Positions 4,312-36,181 of a stretch of 58,947 nt of DNA are shown piece after piece. The DNA is taken from NCBI GenBank assembly GCA_038061925.1, contig JBBTYD010000007.1:1-58947 (forward strand), written 5' to 3'. Source of the DNA: Patescibacteria group bacterium. Lineage in GTDB: Bacteria > Patescibacteriota > Minisyncoccia > Phycocordibacterales > UBA9973. Positions within the stretch are counted from its first letter, which is position 1. Each line of letters opens with the position of its first letter. The translations under genes were made by a program, and so were the position numbers. The notes beneath the pieces are model-generated. The model did no database searches, had not been told where the DNA came from, and saw nothing but the letters and a program-made list of their open reading frames with translations.

Positions 4312-5016
4312 TTACTGCGTAGATTTTATTGTTGGTTTAATATCTAATGTTTTTTCTTGCAACTTTAAGGAATCTTTTAATTGGGGAAGAATATTTTCAA
4401 CCTCCTCTATTGTTTTGAAACCGGAATAATTTTTTCCATCAATCACCATCACTGGTACGCTCAGAGGTATTTTGTAAATAGAAATTAGAGCTTTTACAGC
4501 TGACAAATCTAAATTATAATCAAAAGAATAAATACGTAATGGCGGATATTTTTCACGCAATACCGACAAAACATATTCTTGTTTAACGCAATCGGTACAA
4601 GTGGGGTCGGGAGAATACATATAGAGAATAAACAAATTTTTCGTGCCACAGCGTTCATTTATCTTTTTCATTAAAAGGTAATCTTTAATCTCCAATAAAG
4701 AGTAATATTTCTTTAGATATCTAATGTCGGTATTGTCAGTGGCAAAATTTTTTTCACTATAATTTATTTTGTCAGCAATATTATTTATTTCTTGAGAAAG
4801 CACAGAATTATTGACATCTTTGCAAGATAATTCTTGAAAAAGAGAGAATTGAGTTTCAGAAGAAAGAATATCAATGGATATGTTGTCTTGAATATTCTTC
4901 AACTGGTTAATTTTATTATTATAAAAATAATTGGTAAAATAAAAAGCGCTGGCAAACAAGGTAGCTGTTATAAAAAAAACAATAACATATTTTTTCCAAT
5001 CGTTTTGGGGTGTCAT
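4312..5016 (-). CDS. Membrane-anchored protein with a C-terminal thioredoxin-like CxxC domain
   Basis: N-terminal TM helix, CTDC motif, later VP motif. ATG at 5016 preferred over the overlapping TTG at 5034. Confidence 0.6.
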   Translation of the reverse strand: MTPQNDWKKYVIVFFITATLFASAFYFTNYFYNNKINQLKNIQDNISIDILSSETQFSLFQELSCKDVNNSVLSQEINNIADKINYSEKNFATDNTDIRYLKKYYSLLEIKDYLLMKKINERCGTKNLFILYMYSPDPTCTDCVKQEYVLSVLREKYPPLRIYSFDYNLDLSAVKALISIYKIPLSVPVMVIDGKNYSGFKTIEEVENILPQLKDSLKLQEKTLDIKPTIKSTQ

Positions 5017-6761: not shown

Positions 6762-7532
6762 ATGGAAGAAAATAACATTGAAAATAAAAGCAAAAATAGT
6801 CAACAACAGATAGTTGGAGCAATACTTGTAGTGGGAGTTTTAATAGCTGGAGCGATCTTGTTGAAAGGAAGCAAATCATCTGAAACAATCGCCGTCCCCG
6901 TGAATAATAACGGAGTCCCGATAACAACTTTGGCGCCAGTTGGAACAGCAGACAGAACACTTGGAAATCCACAGGCAAAAGTTACACTGATTTTATACGA
7001 AGATTTCCAGTGTCCTTTCTGTGGAGCAGTCTCCGGTTTGGTATCCAATACTGATGCAATTAAATACTTAAAGGAAAAAGTTGACCCAAATTGGACTCCT
7101 TTTATGCCTCTAATTAATGAACATATAAAAAAGGGAGATGTGCAATTTGTGTATCGTGACTGGGCATTTTTGGGACCGGAATCAATAAAATCAGCCGAAG
7201 CGACCAGATGCGCCGGAGATCAAGGAAAATTCTGGGAATATCATGATTATCTTTATGGTCACCAAAATGGAGAAAACCAAGGAAGCTTCTCTGACCCAAA
7301 CTTAAAATCTTTCGCCAAAAAACTTGGTCTAAACTCTTCTAGTTTTGACAAGTGTCTGGATGAAAACAAATACGCGCAAGCGGTCGCTGATTCCAAAACT
7401 GAAGGAACAAGCGCTGGAGTAACTGGCACACCTAAAGGTTTTATCTTGAGAGATAAAAAAGTTGTTTCCACGATTGATGGCGCCGAGTCATTCACGATAG
7501 TAAAACAAAAGATTGAGAGTGCGTTGAAATAG
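6762..7532 (+). CDS. dsbA: DsbA-family thiol-disulfide oxidoreductase, membrane anchored
   Basis: EDFQCPFC active site, GTP cis-Pro motif. Start moved from 6648 to ATG 6762 because TGCTACAAT lies 6 nt upstream. Confidence 0.88.
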   Translation: MEENNIENKSKNSQQQIVGAILVVGVLIAGAILLKGSKSSETIAVPVNNNGVPITTLAPVGTADRTLGNPQAKVTLILYEDFQCPFCGAVSGLVSNTDAIKYLKEKVDPNWTPFMPLINEHIKKGDVQFVYRDWAFLGPESIKSAEATRCAGDQGKFWEYHDYLYGHQNGENQGSFSDPNLKSFAKKLGLNSSSFDKCLDENKYAQAVADSKTEGTSAGVTGTPKGFILRDKKVVSTIDGAESFTIVKQKIESALK

Positions 7533-7540
7533 AAAAAATT

Positions 7541-7711
7541 ATGACTAAAATAATATTACGGGTTATAATTATTATAATAATACTTGTAGTAATATATTGG
7601 ATTCTTGGAATGTTTGGTTTAGTACCAATTAGACACTGTGATGTTGCTATGGGACCAAACGGTGCAATTCACTTTTGTGAATGGTATCCTGGACCCAGTC
7701 GTATATATTAA
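7541..7711 (+). CDS. Small single-TM protein (56 aa) with two Cys; not in the ORF track
   Basis: MTKIILRVIIIIIILVVIYWILGMFGLVPIRHCDVAMGPNGAIHFCEWYPGPSRIY; starts 8 nt after the dsbA stop. Confidence 0.6.
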   Translation: MTKIILRVIIIIIILVVIYWILGMFGLVPIRHCDVAMGPNGAIHFCEWYPGPSRIY

Positions 7712-7768
7712 AACATCTACCCTTAAGGGTTAACTAAAGGACAAGCCATGTAATGTGGATAAAACAAG

Positions 7769-7804
7769 TTACCATAATAGACACGGCCGTGTCTATTATG
7801 GTAA
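7769..7804. repeat. Perfect 36-bp palindrome upstream of the PaaX/Cas2-like gene
   Basis: TTACCATAATAGACACGG|CCGTGTCTATTATGGTAA; overlaps the putative -10 box TGGTAATAT. Confidence 0.95.
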
Positions 7805-7813
7805 TATAGTAAT

Positions 7814-8374
7814 ATGCGTTTAATTGATCAAGAATCGAACTCAGGAAAAATAATTCGCGCTCTAGGCATCGGAATAGGCATATCTGTTGCTTTAGCAAAT
7901 AGAAGAACAAGTTATAAAATGACAAAAACATTGATTAAGGAAATCTTTGGTTTAAATGAACAGCCAAAAAATTATTCTAGATATTTTCATAAATTGAGGA
8001 AACAAAAGCTTGTATACATCAAAGAGGTTGGCAATGATCACATCATATCTCTCACGGATAAAGGCGAAGAAGTTTTTTTGAGATTTAATTACGAAAAGTT
8101 AGAAATAAAGCAAAGTAAAATATGGGATAGAAATTTCCGTATGATTATTTTTGACATTCCAGAAATAAAAAGAAATGCTAGGGACTCGCTTCGAGATAAA
8201 ATGAAAGAGCTGGGTCTTGTAAAATTTAACAATAGCGTTTGGATATATCCATATCCATGCCAAAAAGAAATTGATTTTGTCGCTAATTACTGGAAGATAG
8301 GAAAATATGTTCATTTTGCCTTGGTGAAAGACGTGACTAATAGAGAATACTTAGAGAAATATTTTAATTTATAA
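7814..8374 (+). CDS. PaaX-like protein: N-terminal wHTH plus C-terminal Cas2-like ferredoxin-fold domain
   Basis: LTDKG wing motif; WD..FRMIIFDIPE..R..RD.LR..MKELG...NNSVWIYPYPC pattern typical of CPR PaaX-like proteins. Confidence 0.75.
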   Translation: MRLIDQESNSGKIIRALGIGIGISVALANRRTSYKMTKTLIKEIFGLNEQPKNYSRYFHKLRKQKLVYIKEVGNDHIISLTDKGEEVFLRFNYEKLEIKQSKIWDRNFRMIIFDIPEIKRNARDSLRDKMKELGLVKFNNSVWIYPYPCQKEIDFVANYWKIGKYVHFALVKDVTNREYLEKYFNL

Positions 8375-8409
8375 ATAATTTCCTTACCTTATTTTCATTA
8401 TTACTAATA

Positions 8410-8441
8410 ACCACAATAACCACGGTCGTGTCTATTGTGGT
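8410..8441. repeat. Second, imperfect copy of the palindrome, downstream of the PaaX-like gene
   Basis: ACCACAATAACCACGGTCGTGTCTATTGTGGT; 27/32 identical to 7771-7802. Confidence 0.88.
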
Positions 8442-8462
8442 ATTAATGAATAGTGTTTCTTA

Positions 8463-9638
8463 TTAGTCAAAATAATTTTTCAACCTTGCAATTTTATCGT
8501 GCTGACGAAGTTTTTCGTGAACTTTCGCTTCAATTTGACGAATACGTTCACGAGTCACACCAAATTCTTCCCCTACCCGCTCCAGAGTGTGTTGAATACC
8601 ATCTAGTAATCCATAACGCATCTCCAGTATTTTGCGTTCTTTTGGATTGAGCTCGCTCAAGACCTCGCGAATTTGGTCAGAGAGAATTCTTCGAGAAGAT
8701 TCTTGATCCGGGCGTAAAATTTTATCATCTGGAATAAAGTTTTCCAGTGTTGATTTATCGTCATCGTCTCTAACCGGTTGTTCCAGAGAAACAGTTTCTT
8801 GACTAATATTTTCAATTACATGAATTTTTTCCACTGGAATACCCATTTCGGTGGCAATTTCTTCCGCCAATGGTTCTCGACCCAAATCTTGAGAAAGCTT
8901 TCGATGAGTTTGTTTATATTTAGAAATTGTCTCCACCATATGTACCGGTATGCGAATAGTTCTGCTTTGGTCAGCTAAAGCGCGAGTAATAGACTGACGA
9001 ATCCACCAAGTGGCATAAGTGGAGAATTTAAACCCTTTTGTCCAATTAAATTTTTCAACTGCCTTGAATAAACCTAAATTACCTTCCTGAATTAGATCCA
9101 ACAGAGTCAAGTTAGCGGATCTTCCCACATATTTTTTCGCAATTGAAACCACTAGACGTAAATTCGCGCGCGCCAGCAGATTCTTGGCCTCGAGATCCCC
9201 ACGCTCAATGCGCTTGGCAAGATCTTTTTCGTCGCTGGCATGAATAAGCGGATATTGACCTATCTCCTTTAAATACATTTGGATAGAATCATGCAGACTG
9301 GACTTATTTAAATCTTTATCAGTCAGATCTGTATTGAGATTAAGCAGATTCCCCCCCTCCAACACATCAATTCCGGCAATTCCAAATTTCTCGTAAAGTT
9401 CATCTAAAAATAAAATATTATTCTCAATATCCGGGAAAGTTTTTAATATTTCATCGTAAGTGATAAATCCTCTTTTACGTCCTTTTTCTATAAGCTCACT
9501 GGAAATACGAGCCAAGTTTTGTGCTTTTTTTTCAATTGAAGACAATTTTTTAATTTTTTTCTTCTTGTTTTTTTTTATCTTTTTGGTTTTAAGCTTTTTA
9601 ATCTTTTTAATCATTTTTCTTCTTGTTTTTGTTTTCAT
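8463..9638 (-). CDS. rpoD: Primary sigma-70 factor
   Basis: [45 protein letters not shown]; Lys-rich N-terminal tail. Confidence 0.97.
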
Positions 9639-11419: not shown

Positions 11420-11444
11420 AAATACAATTTCTAATTGACCTAAT

Positions 11445-11479
11445 ATAATTTTATCAAGGAGAATCCTTGATAAAATTAT
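11445..11479. repeat. REP-like palindrome (16-bp arms) containing the rpoC stop codon
   Basis: ATAATTTTATCAAGGA-GAA-TCCTTGATAAAATTAT. Confidence 0.9.
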
Positions 11480-14400
11480 TTTTCCACTCCAGTTTTGATC
11501 TTTTTTTGAACCCCGTCCCAGCCGGGATCAATCGTCCAATAATAACATTCTCTTTTAGTCCTCTCAAATAATCTACTCCACCCTTGATGGCATTTTCAAT
11601 CAAAACACGATTGGTGTTTTGGAACGAGGCGGCCGAAAGCCAACTTTTGGTGCGAAGCGACACTTCTGTAATACCGAGCACGACTGTTTCCGCTTTTGAT
11701 TCTTTGGATTCTTTCAGCTGTCCAACTCTTATATTTTCTTCTATAAAGGCCGTATTTTCAACAATATCGCCAATAGAAAAATTGGTATTACCGGCATCTT
11801 TTATTTTTCGGCGCGAAAACATCTGACGAATAATTATTTCGGTATGCTTCCTGGAAATTGAAGCGCTCTGCAATTCATAAACTTTATTTATTTCTCGAAT
11901 TATATACTCTTCGACTAATTCTTTACTGCCAAATTTAAAGATTTCAGCAATATCCGCAGAACCATCAGTGATAATTTGACCCTTAAAAACTTTATCACCC
12001 ACCTTCATTGTTGGGATTCTGCGAAACGGCACAAGGTATTCTATTTCGTTTGGCTGGCCGTCAAGTTTTGTGTCAGATAGCACTTTAATAATTTTTTCCC
12101 CGCCTGTGTGGACAAGTTTTCCACCTGCCTGCGCAGGTAAGTCTTTGGCCACAATAGATATCACTTCTCCATCAGTTTGTGAAACAATTGCCGGATTTTT
12201 TGGAATTCTTCTTTCAAATATCTCTTCGACTCGCGGCAGCCCCGTAGTGATATCAGTACCAGCCACACCTCCAGCGTGAAAAGTACGGAGCGTAAGCTGG
12301 GTGCCTGGCTCACCAATAGCTTGAGCGGCAATGATGCCCACCGCCTCTCCTAAATCCACCAAATGATTACGCCCTAAATCAAGTCCGTAACACATCTGAC
12401 AAAGACCATGAACAGTGCGACAAGTTAATAGAGAGCGAACAAAAACTTCGTTAAAACCTGCCCCTTCAATGTTATAAGCTTCCTCTTTGGTAATCAAGAA
12501 ACCTCTTTTGAAAACTATCTTGCCATTTTTATCTTTAAGGTCTCCCGCCAGTACCCGTCCGCGAATATTTTTGGAAAGTGGAATTTCTATTCCAGAAATA
12601 TTTTCTCTGGTAACTATTTTCCCTTCTTTTGTACCGCAATCCTCTTCAGTTATAACCACATCCTGCGCAACGTCAACCAACCTTCGAGTTAAGTACCCAG
12701 CCTTAGCCGTGTTTAAGGCGGTATCGGAAGCGCCTTTGCGAGCGCCGTGAGTAATAACGAAATATTCAATTGGAGAAAGTCCCTCTTGGTAACAAGGAAT
12801 AATGGGAAATTCCAAAGTTTTACCTTGATTGTTTTGGATAAGTCCAATCATTCCTGTCATTTGCATCAATGACGACATTGTGCCACGGGCTTTAGAAGTG
12901 AACAAATCATAAGTGGAACTCTTTTTATCAAGTGTTTTGGGTAAAACTTTTTCCAAATTTTTCTTTGTATGTGTCCAAATTTCGATAATCTTTTGATATT
13001 TTTCTTCTTCCGACAAAAGACCCTCGCGCCATTGTGATATTATTTCTTCTTCAAGTTTTTTACCTTCCGCTATTATTTTTGGTTTCTCGGGCGACACCGA
13101 AACATTATCAAGCCCCCAGGTAGTACCAGAAACTGTCGAGTATTTAAAGCCAAATGCTTTAATTTCATCCAAGATAAGAGGAGTGTTGTCGACCCCAGAG
13201 TGTACGATAAGCTCATCTAGCAGAAAAGACAGTCTATCTTGGGTCATTTCATCATTCACGTAAGAAAAATCATTTGGCAAAATACTGTTAAAAAAAAGTT
13301 TCCCAACAGAAGTGTCAAAAATTCCTCCAGAAAATTTTTTGTATTTCTCTTTCTCTGTTGCCAGAACTTTTATTTTAGCGCGTAGAGATATAATCCCATA
13401 GTTATAAGCAGTAATAGCAGAATTGGGACTGGAAAAATATTTACCCTCTCCAACTTCACCGTCAACTGATTTTGTCATCCAATAACTTCCAAGCACCATA
13501 TCCATCCGAGGATGCACTATCGGATCGCCATTCTGAGGTTTTAGCAGGTTTTTGTTTGCAGCCATTAATTCTTTTGCTTCGGATTGAGCTTCTTCGAGCA
13601 ATGGAACATAAACGGCCATTTGGTCTCCATCAAAATCAGCATTGAAGGCTTGACAAACAAGCGGATGAACTTGAATAGCATTTCCCTCAATCAGAATAGG
13701 ATTAAAGGCTTGAATACCCAAACGATGTAGAGTGGGCGCGCGGTTTAAAAGAACATATTTCCCAGCGATAACTTCTTCCAACATCGTCCAAACGTCAGGA
13801 GTGCGTTCCTCTATAAGCTTATTCGCTCCACGAATATTAAAGGCTAATTCTGCTTGCAAAATTTTAGAAATTACGAATGGTCTAAAAAGCTCGAGCGCCA
13901 TGTGCTTAGGCAATCCACATTGATTGAGTTTGAGTTCGGGACCGACAACAATCACTGAACGTCCTGAATAGTCCACTCTTTTCCCAAGTAAATTTTGGCG
14001 AAAAAGACCTTGTTTGGATTTCAAATTATCGGATAGCGATTTTAAGGGACGCTTTTGGGATTGACTCATCGCCGCCGAGTCATTTTGCTTGGCAATCGAA
14101 TTATCAATCAGCGCGTCAACGGCTTCCTGAATAATTCTTTTTTCATTTCGTAATATCACATCTGGAGCATTAATTTCTTTTAATTTCTTCAAACGATTAT
14201 TCCTATTTATAACTCGACGATAGAGATCATTGAGGTCTGATGTCGCATGTCTGCCTCCATCCAGAGCCACCATCGGACGCAAGACGGGCGGAATAACTGG
14301 AATAACAGTCAAAAACATCCATTCCGGTCGAATCCCAGCGTAAGTCATAGCGCGAATAAGAGACAGTTTTTTTTGTAATTTCTCTTTTTCCGCCATGCTT

Positions 14401-25315: not shown

Positions 25316-27586
25316 CTATTTTGCAATTTGGGTAGCTTCTTCAAACTTCACCGAGAGAAGCTTAGAGGCGCCATTACTACCGATGGTGATGCCGTAAAGC
25401 ACGCTGGCGCGGGACATCGTTTCTCTATTATGAGTAACAACAATAAGTTGAGAACTTTTAGAAAGTTTCTCTAACATATCGCCATATTTGCGCGAATTGG
25501 CTTCATCTAGCGCGGCATCGGTTTCATCTAACACAAGAAAAGGCGGCGGATTCACTTGCGACATGGCAAAAAGAAGAGCGATGGAAGTGAGCGACCTCTC
25601 TCCACCCGAGAGCGCATGAAGTTCTTTGACTTTCTTATGAGGCAAGGAAACATTTATTTCTACACCTTGTTCGAGCACAGCAGTATTATTATCTTCTTGT
25701 AATCCTAACTCTAGTTCTTCATCTGATTCGATAGAATCAGGCTGATTATTTTTTTTCTTCTTCTCTGGAACAATGATAGCTAAAGATCCCGTTCCCCCAT
25801 CAAACATAAGCGAGAAAAATTTCTGAAATTCTATATTAATTTTTTTAACACCTTCTTTGAATTCTAGATCAATTTTTTCTTTCAGGTCAGTTACTAGTTT
25901 TTGTAATGATTCAATGCTTTTAGCCAAATCTTCCATTTCTTTCTCCAAAAAACTATCTCGCTCCGTCACTTCTTTAAATTCTTTCATAATTTCAGCCCCG
26001 TTACCAATACCAACATCTTCTAATTTTATTTTTAGACGTTCAATTTTTCTCTTTAACTCTTCTTGAGTTGCGGAAGCCTTGCTTCCGCCCTAAGGCGTAA
26101 GCAAGGCTTCCGCAATATTTTTATAAGACAAAATTTCTTGACCAATCAAGGCGACGCCTTCCTTTATTTCATTTTCAAAAACTTTAGCTCTCTCTTTTAG
26201 ATTTCCTTCTTTAAGAATCACAAATTCCAAAGCGGAAGCCAATTCTTGATGTCTAACCTTAAATTTAAATTTTTCTTTTTCAAGATCACGTAAAGTTTCC
26301 ATCTCTTGATTTATCTCCTTTTTTAAAATATCCACTGATTTAGAAATTTCTTTCTCTTTCTCCTCTATTTCTCGCATTCTATTGCTAATTTCTTGGTAAT
26401 TTTTATTTAAGTTTTGTATTTCAAAATTCTTGTTAAAATTTTCTTTATTGGGAGTAGAAAATTTTTTCAAGATACTTTTAATTCGTTCTAAAATAGACTT
26501 CACATCTTCTATATTAGCTTTGGAAATAGCTTCATCTATCGAATAGTTTATTTCGTTTATCGTGGTTTTGATTTCCTCTTGGGAAATTTCTATCACTTTC
26601 GCTTTTTGCTCGGCCCGGCGTTCTTCCATCTCAATCATTCCCTCGATTCTGCCCAGCTTGCGTTCTATTTCGCTTTTTACTCCGCGCAGAGAATTCAAAT
26701 TATCTTCCAGAACTTTTAATTCATCTATCTTCTTATTACCTTTTCCAAAATTGCCATCTTCCGCGACAGAGATTCGACTCACGACACTTTGAAGTTCACT
26801 TCTCAGTTTGTTTCTTTCGGTCGATAAAACATTTTTTTCATTCTCTAAGTAAACATCTTCCCCTTTAAAATATTCTTTATATAAAATTGCCAATTCCGCT
26901 TGCATTTCTTTAGTTTTCTCAAACTTTTCCACTTGTTTCTTTAGAAAATTAAGATGCGGAATATTTTCTCTTCGCAAGAGAGTTACTTCTTTCATATTCT
27001 CCTCTGCCCGTTCTAGTTTCCTAGCACTTTCTTTTATTTTATATTGATAAATTTTAAGTCCGAGCGCGTCTTCTACCATTTCGCGTCTATCTTCCATATT
27101 GGCATTCAAAATTCTATCAGCTTCCCCCTGTGAAATAATATGATGCTGAGAAGAACCAATGTTGACTGAAGACAAAAGGTGGTGAATATCTTTTAACCTA
27201 ACTTCCGTGCCATTCAAAATATATTTGCTTAATCCATCAGAATAAACCTCACGAGAAATACTGACAGTTTCATAATTTAAATTTATATTGTCTCCGAGAT
27301 CATTATTAAGTTTAAAAATTTTATCAGAATTATTAAAATAGATTGAAACCGATGCGCGTGAACCTTTGGGTAAATTTTTTGATCCTTTAAAAATAAGATC
27401 AGCGCCTGACTTTCCACGCATTGATTTGATTGATTGTTCGCCTAAAACATAGCGAATGGCTTCCACCACGTTAGATTTTCCAGAACCATTTGGCCCAACA
27501 ATAGAGACAATTGAATTATCAAATTCTAAAACAGTTTTTTGCGCAAAAGATTTAAAACCATTTAATTCGAGGGTTTGAAGTCGCAT
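25316..27586 (-). pseudogene. smc: SMC-family ATPase (about 756 codons) interrupted by an in-frame TAG at 26090-26092
   Basis: Walker A GPNGSGKSN in the 5' ORF; LSGGERS and LDETDAALD in the 3' ORF. The 34 codons between the TAG and ATG 25987 are open and in frame (GGSKASATQEELKRKIERLKIKLEDVGIGNGAEI). Confidence 0.85.
26068..26115. repeat. 48-bp palindrome inside smc with the stop codon in its loop
   Basis: Minus strand: TTGCGGAAGCCTTGCTT-ACGCC-TTAG-GGCGG-AAGCAAGGCTTCCGCAA (17-bp perfect arms). Confidence 0.93.
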
Positions 27587-33551: not shown

Positions 33552-35447
33552 CTATCTTACCTGCCAATCATTATTTTCTTTAATTTTATTAGTTATTTTA
33601 ATCATATTTTCATTTACTTCAATATCTGTCAGAGTCCGGTCGTAAGACTGAAAAACTAATCTAAAGGCATACGAGATTTGGTTACCTTTCTTGAATTCAT
33701 CAAAAAGTTCTGGACCTCGGATTACCATATCTCCCATATTTTTTTTTATTATATTTTTGACTTCTGAGCTTTTTACATTTTCCGGCACCCAGACAGCTAT
33801 ATCACGCGCGATGAAAGGAAATAAAGACCACATCTGAAATAAAAGAGGCTTTAGTGAAGAATTCTTATTTTTTTTTTGTAAAAGAAAATCTTCTTTAAAA
33901 GAGACTTGGAAGCGCGACGGCGCGAGCACGAGGAATTTTTCAGCAGAAAAATATCCGTGCTCTTTGGAAGAAGAATTCTCTAGAACAAATTCTTCAAGCG
34001 TCGTTTCTTTTATCTCTTTTTTATCTCCATACGCAATATGCATCTCTTCCCCCGTCTTTTTAAATATCGTTCCAATTTCAAAAATCTTGACCTGATTAAT
34101 TCCCAAAAATAGAGCATTTAATTGATTAAGTTTGCTACTTTCTTTAAGACCATCAGTTAAATTTGTGCGTAAAAATTTCTTATCAGAAGCACTGTTTTGC
34201 ACTTCCACTTCCCCTTTATCGCAAAAAGTATAAGTCATCACTTCGAAGTATCCATCACTGAGTAATCTATTTTTCGCCCAACAAATTTTCGCATACGTTT
34301 CATTTTGTTTTGGTTTAAAACTTATTTTAGGAATATTTCCTTTTATCTTATCGTATCCAAGAATTCTCGCCATTTCTTCCGCCATATCTTCTTCAATTTC
34401 TAAATCAAGGCGCATCGGCGGCACGGTCATTAGAAACTTGGTAGTCGGAGTACCAAGTGGTACTCCGACTACCAAGTCGTATGTAAAATTATATCTTTTT
34501 AAAATATCCTTTATCGTAGTTACCGAAACATCAAGACCTAAAATGTCTGAGATTCTATTAGCCGAAAATGAAAGTTTTTTTTCTTTTTGTTTTTTGGGAT
34601 AAGTATCGACGATATCTTCAAAAATAGCTCCAGGACACATTTCAAAAATAAGCGCGGAAAGTTCCCTCATCGCATAAGAACCCAATTCTGGAGATAAATT
34701 ATTTTCAAAACGTTTTCGAGCGTCAGTAAAAATATTTAAAGCTTGAGCCGTTTTCCTGACACTCATAGGATCAAAATTAGCAACTTCAATAATTATATTT
34801 TTTGTATTTTCGTCAACCTCCGCAATCTTTCCGCCTTTTATTCCGGCCAGAGCTAAAACATTCTTCGAATCAGCAATAACAAGGTGGAAATTTTTTAATT
34901 TTATTTCTTTATTATCCAATGTGACTATCTCTTCACCAGCCTGCGCGTCACGCACCATTATTCCACCCTTTATTTTATCCAAATCAAAAGCATGTGTCGG
35001 CTGTCCGCAGTCAAACATCACAATATTTGCAGCATCCACAATATTATTTATGCTTCTCTGCCCTATCGATTCTAAATGTTTCACTACCCAGTCTGGACTA
35101 GAACCAACTTTCACACTTCTTATTATTCTACCCATATATCTTGGACATTTGTCGATCTTTATTTCTATCAGCAAATTAGTTGATTTAGACTCCGGAATTT
35201 TATATTTTGGTGTTGGATCAACATATTTTATATTCAAAAGTGAAGCTAGCTCACGAGCAACACCCTGATGAGAAAGTAAATCATGCGCGCGGTTCGGCAA
35301 TATTTTTAAATCAAAAATAACATCCCCATCCAGCTTTTTCTCCGCAGTCTCAACTTCACAAAGATGATAATTAAAAATATCTACCAGTTTATTTGCATCT
35401 GGCGCCTTCGGTATATACTGTTTAAGCCAATTGTAAGAAATTTTCAT
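33552..35447 (-). CDS. pheT: Phenylalanyl-tRNA synthetase beta subunit, shortened, with two palindromic insertions
   Basis: MKISYNWLKQY start, PNRAHDLLSH.GVARE, RDIAVW, FDX-ACB C-terminus. Confidence 0.93.
   Translation of the reverse strand: MKISYNWLKQYIPKAPDANKLVDIFNYHLCEVETAEKKLDGDVIFDLKILPNRAHDLLSHQGVARELASLLNIKYVDPTPKYKIPESKSTNLLIEIKIDKCPRYMGRIIRSVKVGSSPDWVVKHLESIGQRSINNIVDAANIVMFDCGQPTHAFDLDKIKGGIMVRDAQAGEEIVTLDNKEIKLKNFHLVIADSKNVLALAGIKGGKIAEVDENTKNIIIEVANFDPMSVRKTAQALNIFTDARKRFENNLSPELGSYAMRELSALIFEMCPGAIFEDIVDTYPKKQKEKKLSFSANRISDILGLDVSVTTIKDILKRYNFTYDLVVGVPLGTPTTKFLMTVPPMRLDLEIEEDMAEEMARILGYDKIKGNIPKISFKPKQNETYAKICWAKNRLLSDGYFEVMTYTFCDKGEVEVQNSASDKKFLRTNLTDGLKESSKLNQLNALFLGINQVKIFEIGTIFKKTGEEMHIAYGDKKEIKETTLEEFVLENSSSKEHGYFSAEKFLVLAPSRFQVSFKEDFLLQKKNKNSSLKPLLFQMWSLFPFIARDIAVWVPENVKSSEVKNIIKKNMGDMVIRGPELFDEFKKGNQISYAFRLVFQSYDRTLTDIEVNENMIKITNKIKENNDWQVR
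33856..33979. repeat. Probable 114-bp in-frame insertion in pheT bounded by 10-bp direct repeats
   Basis: GAAGAATTCT at 33856 and 33970 (114 nt apart); inner hairpin GAGCACG...CGTGCTC at 33924-33962. Confidence 0.6.
34436..34477. repeat. 42-bp palindrome in frame inside pheT
   Basis: ACTTGGTAGTCGGAGTACCA-AG-TGGTACTCCGACTACCAAGT; encodes DLVVGVPLGTPTTK. Confidence 0.93.
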
Positions 35448-35461
35448 ATCAAAATCGAAAA

Positions 35462-36181
35462 TTAAAATTGATTCAGCCTTAAATCTCCCTGATAAAAAAG
35501 ACGCACATCGGGAATACCCCATTTTATCATCGCAATCCGGTCAAGCCCTCCACCAAAAGCGAAACCTTGCACCTTGGCGGGATCCAGACCAATATTGCGC
35601 AAAACATTCGGGTGCAACATTCCCGCACCCATCATCTCGAGCCATTTACCTTTAAATTTAGCAAATACTTCAATGGAGGGTTCAGTAAAAGGGAAAAAAC
35701 TCGGCCTGAATTCTATCTCCACATTTTCCCCCAGCATTTTTTTATAAAAAAGAGTCAGCACGCCTTTCAAATCAGCCAGAGAAATATCCTCTCCCACCAT
35801 TACTCCATCTATCTGAAAAAACTGCATCTCGTGAGTTATATCTGTGGCTTCGTTTCTAAATACTTTTCCGATTGAAATAAAGGCGCAAGGCATCCTGCCC
35901 GCCTTACCCGCCTGTTCAATCGCGCGAGCGGTGACCGTCGTGGTATGAGTGCGAAGCACAGCTGAGCCTGGATGCTTCCCATTTTTTATCCAAAAAGTGT
36001 CTTGCATGTCCAGCGCCGGATGATCTTTGGAAAAGTTCAAGACATAAAAGTTATACCAGTCGTTTTCCAGTTCCGGCCCGATCGCAATTTCAAAACCCAT
36101 ATCGGAAAAAGCTTGGTACGCTTGATTTGTCAATCTAGAAAACGGATGCATTGTGCCTTTTTGCTTATTTTCATCGGTCAT
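35462..36181 (-). CDS. pheS: Phenylalanyl-tRNA synthetase alpha subunit, N-terminally truncated
   Basis: HPALDMQDTF, LRTHTT, FRNE, FPFTEPS, GFAFGGGLDR. Confidence 0.96.
   Translation of the reverse strand: MTDENKQKGTMHPFSRLTNQAYQAFSDMGFEIAIGPELENDWYNFYVLNFSKDHPALDMQDTFWIKNGKHPGSAVLRTHTTTVTARAIEQAGKAGRMPCAFISIGKVFRNEATDITHEMQFFQIDGVMVGEDISLADLKGVLTLFYKKMLGENVEIEFRPSFFPFTEPSIEVFAKFKGKWLEMMGAGMLHPNVLRNIGLDPAKVQGFAFGGGLDRIAMIKWGIPDVRLFYQGDLRLNQF

What the first reader, a model, noticed from the sequence alone, without database searches (positions are those of the whole stretch)
7769..8441. PaaX/Cas2-like gene bracketed by two related long palindromes
Seen: a perfect 36-bp palindrome overlapping the promoter and a second copy 36 nt after the stop, 27/32 identical with a compensatory T-A to C-G change. 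The protein has a wHTH plus a Cas2-like domain and no paa or cas genes nearby. The layout (palindrome-gene-palindrome) mirrors the RAYT unit in this window. Inference: a self-contained module whose protein binds, and possibly cuts or mobilises, its own CACGGCCGTG-core palindromes, rather than a phenylacetate regulator.
Basis: partly seen in the sequence, partly recalled or inferred. Interest (0 to 1): 0.7.

Follow-up and report, generated by a model that had tools for sequence, protein, structure and literature searches.

The report
Palindrome-bracketed mini-PaaX repressor cassette
A small DNA-binding protein gene in an ultra-small groundwater bacterium sits between two copies of its own 36-bp palindromic binding site; the first copy doubles as its promoter, and the whole unit is an optional cassette that related genomes gain and lose at a junction also used by toxin-antitoxin and transposase genes.

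Summary
A perfect 36-bp palindrome (7769-7804) and a 27/32-identical copy (8410-8441) bracket a 186-aa gene, and no further copy occurs in the 59-kb window.

The protein is a short PaaX relative: a winged helix plus a Cas2-homologous domain, without PaaX's effector-binding C-terminal domain. It is not a phenylacetate regulator.

The upstream palindrome holds the promoter: -35 TAGACA, extended -10 TGgTAATAT, and an ATG 6 nt later (leaderless). In 25 of 33 homolog loci its centre lies exactly 27 nt before the ATG. 32 of 33 loci also carry a cognate palindrome just after the stop. Upstream and downstream copies co-vary within loci. Three distant family members have different palindrome pairs in the same layout.

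The most likely mechanism is self-repression through two operators.

New here: the cassette is accessory. At the dsbA|rpoD junction, close relatives are empty or carry MazF, HicAB, IS200-like or DUF559 genes. Monophyly of cassette-bearing genomes is rejected (p 7e-70). Three loci show 47-57-bp duplications of a neighbour gene's 3' end around the insert.

Self-mobilisation by the protein is not shown. Identical proteins always sit in one context, and no solo copies or viral copies were found.

The parts
7769..7804 (.). P1/O1: perfect 36-bp palindrome, the upstream cognate operator, co-extensive with the promoter
   Evidence: A homologous site lies with its centre 27 nt before the ATG in 25 of 33 homolog loci.
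7778..7783 (+). -35-like hexamer TAGACA inside the left arm of P1
   Evidence: Promoter scan, (TAGACA-18-TAATAT with TG). This triplet block is conserved in upstream sites but not in downstream sites.
7799..7807 (+). Extended -10 TGgTAATAT, made of the end of P1's right arm plus 3 nt. It ends 6 nt before the ATG, so the mRNA is probably leaderless.
   Evidence: TGnTAxxAT-type boxes lie at the same place in homolog loci and in distant relatives L115, L116 and L118.
7814..8374 (+). mini-PaaX gene, 186 aa: wHTH (about residues 34-90) plus a Cas2-homologous PaaX_M domain (residues 103-174); no PaaX_C domain
8120..8335 (+). Coding region of the Cas2-like (PaaX_M) domain, with the invariant FDIPE...R...SVW motifs (D114, R123, S141, P146)
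   Evidence: Pfam. Weak Cas2 model matches at residues 108-143. Superfamily invariants.
8408..8443 (.). P2/O2: imperfect copy of the palindrome (32-nt core 8410-8441), 35 nt after the stop and 19 nt before the stop of convergent rpoD
   Evidence: A downstream cognate site is present in 32 of 33 homolog loci. There is no T-tract and it was not called as a terminator.
7533..8462 (.). Variable segment between the stop of dsbA (7532) and the stop of rpoD (8463). It holds a 56-codon hydrophobic sORF (7541-7711) and the cassette. Relatives are empty here or hold other cargo.
   Evidence: (joint 7531->8463 in a relative).

Best explanation
This is a self-contained, self-repressing accessory gene cassette of an undescribed 'mini-PaaX' family. 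The 186-aa protein has a winged-helix DNA-binding domain and a Cas2-homologous domain; the equivalent domain in PaaX is the dimerisation module. It lacks PaaX's C-terminal phenylacetyl-CoA-binding domain. A dimer would recognise a 32-36-bp dyad with shared conserved positions ATA-N4-ACGG|CCGT-N4-TAT. This dyad occurs twice, and only twice, in the sampled DNA. O1 (P1) is the gene's promoter: -35 TAGACA lies in the left arm, an extended -10 at the end of the right arm, and the start codon follows 6 nt later (leaderless). A bound protein would therefore exclude RNA polymerase, as PaaX does at its own Px promoter. O2 (P2) lies just past the stop codon. It is part of the cassette rather than a neighbour's control site, because it is kept whatever gene follows and in whatever orientation. 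It most likely cooperates with O1, by looping between two bound dimers and/or as a roadblock or insulator at the 3' end, so the unit is transcriptionally sealed at both ends. The cassette is optional. Over evolutionary time it is gained and lost at junctions between conserved genes that also collect toxin-antitoxin, IS200-like and DUF559 genes. Shown here: sequence anatomy, promoter geometry, conservation, co-variation and patchy phylogenetic distribution. Inferred: DNA binding, repression, looping, and how the cassette moves (most simply by recombination in the conserved flanks).
For: The palindromes are real and unique in the window. Promoter geometry fits. The centre-to-ATG distance is 27 nt in 25 of 33 loci. 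The -35 block is conserved only in upstream sites. 32 of 33 homolog loci have both sites and none has a further site in about 270 kb of flanks. A locus's own downstream site matches its upstream site better than other loci's do (25.1 versus 20.3 of 32; permutation p<1e-4). It also beats the nearest protein relative's site in 22 loci against 9. Dyad symmetry is kept through compensatory changes at positions -15, -4 and -2. There is no orientation bias (13 direct, 11 inverted, 9 ties), as expected for a symmetric dimer site. Distant relatives (25-37% identity) L115, L116 and L118 have different palindrome pairs in the same layout. P2 faces the 3' end of convergent rpoD in group 1, but co-directional genes in group 2. 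Relatives use canonical GC-stem plus T-tract terminators at the same junction, whereas P2 has no T-tract. Homology to PaaX: Pfam PaaX_M, Foldseek best match 8a39, hhalign 90.8%. PaaX autorepression by occlusion of RNA polymerase at Px is described in PMC9493321. Accessory status.
Against: No binding or expression data exist, and no RNA run holds the locus. A repressor whose only detectable targets bracket its own gene has no obvious benefit to the cell, which suggests a further activity. The Cas2-like domain is far more conserved than a dimerisation role requires (D114, R123, S141 and P146 are invariant across 25-37%-identical relatives). The sampled ~330 kb therefore only bounds extra sites to fewer than about 9 per Mb. 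The AF2 model is of moderate quality (pLDDT 66; the N-terminal 40 residues are poor).
Confidence: 0.6

Rival explanations
1. Self-mobilising or selfish cassette. The protein synapses its two terminal palindromes, and its Cas2-homologous domain nicks or cuts them (as duplex, cruciform or hairpin). This would excise, copy or insert the palindrome-gene-palindrome unit, functionally analogous to RAYT/REP or IS200/IS605 ends.
For: The conserved unit begins and ends exactly at the palindromes in every context and paralog. Cas2 hallmark motifs (beta1 Asp D114, FDIPE, QKSVF/NNSVW) are invariant, whereas E. coli PaaX has lost them. The distribution is patchy, with at least 7 gains or losses among 21 close relatives, and monophyly is rejected. 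The cassette shares its insertion junction with MazF, HicAB, IS200-like, rve and DUF559 genes. Direct repeats of 47-57 bp, copied from a neighbour gene's 3' end, flank the insert in L001, L018 and L029. In L018 all 9 differences are synonymous, which implies that one copy came from another lineage.
Against: Identical proteins occur in only one context (7 and 24 contigs). No solo palindromes or extra copies were found in about 330 kb. No relative occurs in IMG/VR viral contigs. The palindrome pairs show no orientation bias. No short target duplication abuts the palindromes. In L029 the long repeats enclose an additional 226-aa gene, and the repeats are what Campbell-type host recombination would produce. 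The module tree is unresolved, so vertical descent with losses is not rejected.
Confidence: 0.13
2. Tightly self-repressed effector (toxin-like or defence-like single-gene module). The Cas2/VapD-type domain is an active nuclease acting on cellular or invader nucleic acids, and the wHTH with its two operators exists to keep its dose low, like an autoregulated toxin-antitoxin unit fused into one polypeptide.
For: Strong conservation of acidic and basic residues in the Cas2-like domain. Weak but consistent matches to Cas2 models over beta1-alpha1. Co-location with toxin-antitoxin modules at the same hotspot, and accessory distribution. Two or three paralogs per genome with private operators (pairs; sites).
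Against: No PADLOC or PHROG family match above noise. No partner gene is conserved next to it. In PaaX the homologous domain is described as a dimerisation motif, not an enzyme (PMC9493321). Sequence conservation alone does not show catalysis.
Confidence: 0.15
3. The palindromes are only transcription terminators or structural hairpins, for the upstream gene and for the mini-PaaX/rpoD pair. Their similarity reflects duplication, not protein recognition.
For: Both fold into stable hairpins as RNA (z -7.6 for P1 and -3.8 for P2, on both strands). P2 sits between convergent genes, where a bidirectional terminator is expected.
Against: Sequence, not just pairing, is conserved across 54-90%-identical homologs. 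Positions -5 to -7 are often unpaired. Neither palindrome has a T-tract on the + strand; the scan calls only the minus strand of P1 terminator-like. Relatives use canonical terminators at this same junction. P1 is fixed at 27 nt from the ATG and carries the -35 and -10 elements. Within-locus co-variation exceeds what relatedness explains.
Confidence: 0.06
4. It is a bona fide PaaX: a phenylacetyl-CoA-responsive repressor of aromatic catabolism.
For: Pfam PaaX_M match, and some database records name homologs 'PaaX family'.
Against: It scores 27.6 bits against the 264.55 cut-off of the TIGR02277 equivalog. It has no PaaX_C domain and no match to the PaaX N-terminal model, whereas E. coli PaaX has all three. 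No paa genes are nearby. The operator differs in sequence and geometry from TGATTC-N27-GAATCA (PMC9493321).
Confidence: 0.01

Closest known systems
PaaX, phenylacetyl-CoA-responsive repressor of the paa operons (E. coli, Pseudomonas; PDB 8a39, 3l09; Pfam PF07848+PF20803+PF08223)
   Same: It has an N-terminal wHTH followed by the Cas2-like middle domain (hhalign 90.8% over residues 48-167; best Foldseek match). It binds, or here is inferred to bind, a long dyad. PaaX represses its own promoter by occluding RNA polymerase (PMC9493321).
   Different: It is 186 aa against 316 aa. It has no PaaX_C effector domain and falls far below the TIGR02277 cut-off. It keeps the Cas2-type FDIPE/R123 motifs where E. 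coli PaaX has SEGLD. There is no paa context. The operator is a contiguous 32-36-bp palindrome present once over the promoter and once after the stop. The gene is an accessory cassette.
Cas2 (CRISPR adaptation protein; SSO1404, SSO8090, S. pyogenes Cas2) and the related VapD toxins
   Same: The C-terminal domain has the ferredoxin-like Cas2 fold (TM 0.5-0.64 normalised to the target). It carries Cas2-like motifs: an Asp at the end of beta1 and the Q-x-SVF strand.
   Different: It is fused to a wHTH. There is no Cas1, no CRISPR array and no cas genes. Cas2 model scores are below threshold (17 versus 24.5 bits). Activity is untested.
Two-operator autorepression with DNA looping (for example lac O1-O2, gal OE-OI, lambda CI OR-OL)
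   Same: A primary operator overlaps the promoter and an auxiliary operator of the same sequence lies hundreds of bp away (about 640 bp centre to centre here).
   Different: The auxiliary site lies just beyond the regulator's own stop codon, and this placement is a family-wide trait. Looping is inferred, not shown.
RAYT/REP and IS200/IS605-type units (gene flanked by cognate palindromes)
   Same: The layout is palindrome-gene-palindrome, with palindromes specific to each paralog.
   Different: The protein has no HUH/Y1 fold. There are no dispersed solo repeats. The upstream palindrome is a promoter at fixed spacing. Identical copies never occur in two contexts.
Type II toxin-antitoxin modules
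   Same: It is a small autoregulated accessory unit with a palindromic operator over its promoter. It occupies the same dsbA|rpoD hotspot as MazF/PhdYefM and HicAB pairs in relatives.
   Different: It is a single gene. Toxicity is untested. It has a second operator after the stop.

Membership tests
PaaX (TIGR02277 equivalog / Pfam PaaX + PaaX_M + PaaX_C) | Whole-protein score above the curated equivalog cut-off | tested here: not met
   27.6 bits against a cut-off of 264.55.
PaaX (TIGR02277 equivalog / Pfam PaaX + PaaX_M + PaaX_C) | Central Cas2-like domain (PF20803) | tested here: met
   E 1.8e-19, 70 bits against a cut-off of 24, residues 103-174.
PaaX (TIGR02277 equivalog / Pfam PaaX + PaaX_M + PaaX_C) | C-terminal effector (phenylacetyl-CoA) domain PF08223 | tested here: not met
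   The protein ends at residue 186 and has no PaaX_C match. E. coli PaaX carries it at residues 190-280.
PaaX (TIGR02277 equivalog / Pfam PaaX + PaaX_M + PaaX_C) | N-terminal PaaX-type wHTH (PF07848) | tested here: inconclusive
   No PF07848 match at E<=1. However, hhalign aligns residues 48-100 with the PaaX recognition helix and wing, and the model shows a wHTH.
PaaX (TIGR02277 equivalog / Pfam PaaX + PaaX_M + PaaX_C) | Genomic association with paa catabolic genes, and a TGATTC-N27-GAATCA operator | tested here: not met
   The neighbours are GT, DUF378, dsbA, rpoD and dnaG. The operator is a contiguous ACGGCCGT-centred dyad. The PaaX operator is taken from PMC9493321.
Cas2 (TIGR01573 / PADLOC Cas2) | Score above the family cut-off | tested here: not met
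   17 bits against 24.5. PADLOC Cas2 E 0.0015 over residues 108-143 only.
Cas2 (TIGR01573 / PADLOC Cas2) | Cas2 fold with the conserved beta1 Asp | tested here: met
   Foldseek matches to SSO8090, SSO1404 and SpCas2. D114 is invariant in 31 close and 50 distant relatives.
Cas2 (TIGR01573 / PADLOC Cas2) | Adjacent cas1 and a CRISPR array | tested here: not met
   Neither is present in the flanks.
REP/RAYT-type or IS200/IS605-type mobile unit | HUH/Y1 transposase | tested here: not met
   No Y1_Tnp match; the fold is wHTH plus Cas2-like.
REP/RAYT-type or IS200/IS605-type mobile unit | Dispersed solo repeats or multiple identical copies | tested here: not met
   Two sites only in the 59-kb window, and two per locus in 33 loci. 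Identical proteins occur in one context only.
Autoregulated two-operator repressor | Operator overlapping the gene's own core promoter | tested here: met
   -35 and extended -10 lie inside or abut P1, at fixed spacing to the ATG across homologs. This is sequence evidence only.
Autoregulated two-operator repressor | Specific binding of the protein to both sites, and repression | not testable with these tools
   Needs EMSA or footprinting and reporter assays. Co-variation is indirect support.

The most novel reading that the evidence does not exclude
The mini-PaaX cassettes (about 4,000 clusters at 50% identity) may be a new class of minimal selfish or addiction element. In this reading a wHTH-Cas2-homolog protein binds the two long palindromes that delimit its own gene, and uses the conserved Cas2-type acidic site to nick or cut them, or an RNA or hairpin form of them. 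That activity would drive excision, insertion or post-segregational retention of the unit at 3' ends of conserved genes. It would also make the family a candidate free-living relative of the Cas2 adaptation protein with a sequence-specific DNA handle.
Probability: 0.15. Interest if true: 0.85.

Novelty: new variant of a known kind. Interest (0 to 1): 0.6.

Why it matters
If the reading holds, it defines a very large, unstudied family of short PaaX/Cas2-homologous DNA-binding proteins, 3,972 clusters at 50% identity. For each member, both the protein and its exact binding site can be read directly from the genome. That is rare for uncultured CPR bacteria and makes the proteins immediately testable in vitro, and possibly usable as orthogonal repressor-operator pairs.

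The work shows that the unit is accessory. It shares insertion junctions with toxin-antitoxin and transposase genes, and some inserts are flanked by duplicated gene ends. This raises the question of what a regulator that appears to regulate only itself is for. It also asks whether a Cas2-type domain has a sequence-directed activity outside CRISPR.

In addition, the locus gives a clean example of a leaderless promoter embedded in an operator in Patescibacteria, and it marks the dsbA|rpoD junction as a gene-flux hotspot in Nomurabacteria.

Tried and rejected
- Profile and single-sequence searches of PDB sequences found nothing meaningful. Only the fold search linked the protein to PaaX and Cas2.
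- The IMG/VR viral contigs hold no relative.
- RNA runs: none hold the locus, so the transcription start and 3' end could not be checked.
- The rpoD DNA tree alone was unresolved and was replaced by a concatenated flank-protein tree.
- The module gene tree is a star. AU tests could not reject congruence with the flank tree, so gain by transfer and ancestral presence with repeated loss cannot be separated.
- No single recognition-helix residue tracked the palindrome core type. Only the two most divergent proteins (L030, L033) combine a changed helix (RDLY/REIY versus RYFH) with changed cores, and this is confounded by phylogeny.
- Flanking direct repeats were sought in all loci. Only L001, L018 and L029 have them, and the window itself has none.
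- Literature searches for PaaX+Cas2 and PaaX+Patescibacteria returned nothing. The Cas2-like+'winged helix' search returned one paper that was not directly relevant.
- PADLOC and PHROGs gave only sub-threshold matches.
- Logan contigs break at P1. They are therefore uninformative about same-strain excision.

Full report
**Observation**

P1 (7769-7804, TTACCATAATAGACACGG|CCGTGTCTATTATGGTAA) is a perfect 18+18 palindrome. P2 has its 32-nt core at 8410-8441, 35 nt after the stop of ORF 7814..8374. It matches P1 at 27 of 32 positions, including the symmetric T-A to C-G change in the arms. The 20-nt core with up to 3 mismatches occurs at these two places only in the 58,947-base window. None of 100 shuffles gave two matches. 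A half-site scan of the whole window also finds no further copy.

**The protein**

- The 186-aa product matches Pfam PaaX_M, the 'central Cas2-like domain', at E 1.8e-19 over residues 103-174. It does not match the PaaX N-terminal or C-terminal models.
- It scores 27.6 bits against the 264.55-bit cut-off of the PaaX equivalog, and 17 against 24.5 for Cas2.
- An AF2 model has mean pLDDT 66, with the C-terminal domain at 75-89.
- By Foldseek, its best solved-structure matches are E. coli PaaX (8a39) and the PaaX-like 3l09 over the whole length. Cas2 proteins match the C-terminal half and wHTH proteins such as F93 match the N-terminal half.
- A profile of 50 distant relatives aligns with E. coli K-12 PaaX at 90.8% probability, residues 48-167 against 51-167.
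- E. coli PaaX carries all three Pfam domains. Ours stops before the effector-binding PaaX_C domain.
- Where the mini family has the invariant Cas2-like FDIPE...R123...(Q/N)xSV(F/W), E. coli PaaX has SEGLD and no arginine.

The protein is therefore a PaaX and Cas2 homolog. It is not a PaaX orthologue and not a phenylacetate regulator. No paa or cas genes lie near it.

**P1 is a promoter**

The scan finds TAGACA-18 nt-TAATAT preceded by TG (7778-7807). The -35 lies in the left arm of P1. The extended -10 (TGgTAATAT) runs from the end of the right arm. The ATG follows 6 nt later with no Shine-Dalgarno sequence, so the mRNA is probably leaderless. This agrees with the unverified scan note e1-5219871 about this genome.

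In 25 of 33 homolog loci the palindrome centre lies exactly 27 nt before the ATG. The GAC of TAGACA is well conserved in upstream sites and poorly conserved in downstream sites. That is the pattern expected if the upstream copy carries a promoter constraint on top of an operator constraint.

**Family-wide architecture**

The close family contains 175 proteins, nearly all of 186 aa, at 64-90% identity. They come from Nomurabacteria/Paceibacterota.

Thirty-four loci were fetched from species-representative genomes. Of the 33 loci compared (the window's own plus 32 fetched ones), all have the upstream palindrome and 32 have a cognate palindrome 7-47 nt after the stop. None has a further copy in about 270 kb of flanks.

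- A locus's upstream site matches its own downstream site better than other loci's: 25.1 against 20.3 of 32, permutation p<1e-4.
- It also beats the downstream site of the nearest protein relative in 22 loci against 9.
- Dyad symmetry is maintained through compensatory changes at positions -15, -4 and -2.
- The pair has no preferred relative orientation: 13 direct, 11 inverted, 9 ties. This fits a symmetric dimer site rather than directional recombination sites.
- Positions conserved in both sites give ATA-N4-ACGG|CCGT-N4-TAT.
- Genomes with two paralogs have distinct palindromes for each.

The superfamily is large: 3,972 clusters at 50% identity with E<=1e-3, of which 2,044 have E<=1e-10. Three of three evaluable distant members (L115, L116, L118) have their own, different palindrome pairs. 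Each pair again lies over an extended -10 upstream and just after the stop.

Earlier notes of this scan reported the same layout in other genomes. I treated those notes as leads and re-derived the result here.

**What P2 is not**

P2 cannot be the control site of a neighbour. In the window's synteny group it faces the 3' end of convergent rpoD. In other groups it precedes co-directional genes of varied identity.

It is not a canonical terminator. It has no T-tract and was not called as one. Relatives use classical GC-stem plus T-tract bidirectional terminators at this very junction. P2 does fold stably as RNA on both strands, so a hairpin contribution at the mRNA 3' end is not excluded.

**The cassette is accessory (new here)**

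Searching metagenomes with the neighbouring DsbA gave 18 loci that keep the order GT-DUF378-dsbA-rpoD-dnaG, with rpoD 86-97% identical. None of them carries the mini-PaaX gene. The dsbA|rpoD gap in these loci falls into several states:

| State of the gap | Loci |
|---|---|
| Empty (about 8-48 nt) | L040, L043, L049, L085, L100 |
| Terminator hairpins only | L042, L078 |
| PemK/MazF plus Phd/YefM | L039, L079 |
| HicA/HicB | L058 |
| IS200-like Y1 transposase | L081 |
| rve fragment | L035 |
| DUF559 and/or a membrane protein | L041, L036 |

A contig of a relative in the source samples likewise joins 7531 to 8463 with only 40 nt between.

On a tree of the concatenated flank proteins (1,374 columns), cassette-bearing and cassette-free loci interleave with strong support. 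Examples are L005 with L042, L008 with L049, and WIN+L002 next to L039. The minimum of 7 state changes equals the shuffled expectation. Forcing the nine bearers into one clade costs 465 log-likelihood units (AU p 7e-70).

One caveat applies. Bearers and non-bearers came from different searches, so frequencies are not estimable. Only the interleaving is.

**Traces of insertion**

- In L001 a 57-bp copy of the rpoD 3' end flanks the cassette on both sides.
- In L018 the last 16 codons of the upstream DEAD-box helicase gene (RTGRSGKKGIALTFV*) recur just after P2. The copies match at 44 of 53 nt and all nine differences are synonymous. The two copies therefore diverged as functional genes in different lineages.
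- In L029 a 47-nt repeat (45 of 47 identical) encloses a 226-aa gene plus the cassette.

This is the product expected from Campbell-type recombination of a circular fragment carrying a homologous gene end. It shows horizontal arrival. It does not implicate the mini-PaaX protein.

**Against active self-mobility**

- The exact window protein is found on 7 contigs, all in the same context. Another family member is found on 24 contigs, again in one context.
- No relative occurs in IMG/VR.
- There are no solo palindromes.
- The window itself has no flanking repeat.
- The cassette gene tree is unresolved and does not reject vertical descent.

**Verdict**

The best-supported reading (about 0.6) is a self-repressing, two-operator, accessory cassette of a large undescribed mini-PaaX family.

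The strong conservation of Cas2-type residues, and the absence of any target other than itself, leave room for an enzymatic, toxin-like or selfish role. Together these rivals take about 0.28 (0.13 self-mobilising, 0.15 self-repressed effector), and the boldest form is put at 0.15. A terminator-only reading (0.06) and a true PaaX role (0.01) are disfavoured.

No paper in the searchable library describes this family or layout.

Noticed in passing
window 7533-8462, and loci L035-L100 (dsbA|rpoD junction): The junction between convergent dsbA and rpoD is a gene-flux hotspot in Nomurabacteria. In close relatives it is empty, or holds MazF/PhdYefM, HicAB, an IS200-like transposase, an rve fragment, DUF559 or small membrane proteins.
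   Followed up: yes
L018:3858-3910 versus 4680-4732; L029:3190-3237 versus 4643-4690; L001:3865-3922 versus 4621-4678: Direct repeats of 47-57 bp, copied from the 3' end of a conserved neighbour gene (DEAD-box helicase or rpoD), flank the insert. In L018 all nine differences are synonymous, which implies a donor from another lineage.
   Followed up: yes
window 7541-7711: A 56-codon, strongly hydrophobic sORF (MTKIILRVIIIIIILVVIYWILGMF...) lies between dsbA and P1. L008 has a different small membrane ORF at the same place. It may be separate cargo of the hotspot.
   Followed up: partly
window 34436-34477: A perfect 20+20 palindrome with a 2-nt centre lies inside a long ORF (33552..35522, minus strand).
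   Followed up: no
window 26068-26115: A 48-nt GC-rich palindrome (22-bp arms, one mismatch, 4-nt loop) overlaps the 5' end of ORF 26090..27586 and lies next to ORF 25316..25987.
   Followed up: no
window 11442-11482: A 41-nt AT-rich hairpin (19-bp arms, 3-nt loop) lies at the dnaG start / rpoC end boundary.
   Followed up: no
L116:2055-2200: This distant mini-PaaX locus has a third related palindrome (GTTGATACAACGTAAAAGCAGCCGCGTCTTAATTGTATCAA) about 60 nt after the downstream one. A ParE-like toxin gene lies about 1 kb upstream.
   Followed up: no
L115:2340-2359: A further palindrome with a related core (CATACACGATCGTGT...) begins at the contig end, about 270 nt after the cassette's downstream site. 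It may mark a neighbouring paralog or a solo site.
   Followed up: no
window 7772-7798 in runs X1 and X2: Logan contigs of the source samples break inside P1. The perfect 36-bp palindrome exceeds the assembler's word length, so short-read assemblies may fragment at such cassettes.
   Followed up: no
L010-L028 (ileS...recO interval): In the second synteny group, the cassette's order relative to three small hydrolase-type genes varies between genomes. These genes are an MBL-fold gene, a Ser_hydrolase gene and an unassigned 170-aa gene. The variation suggests local gene flux there too.
   Followed up: partly
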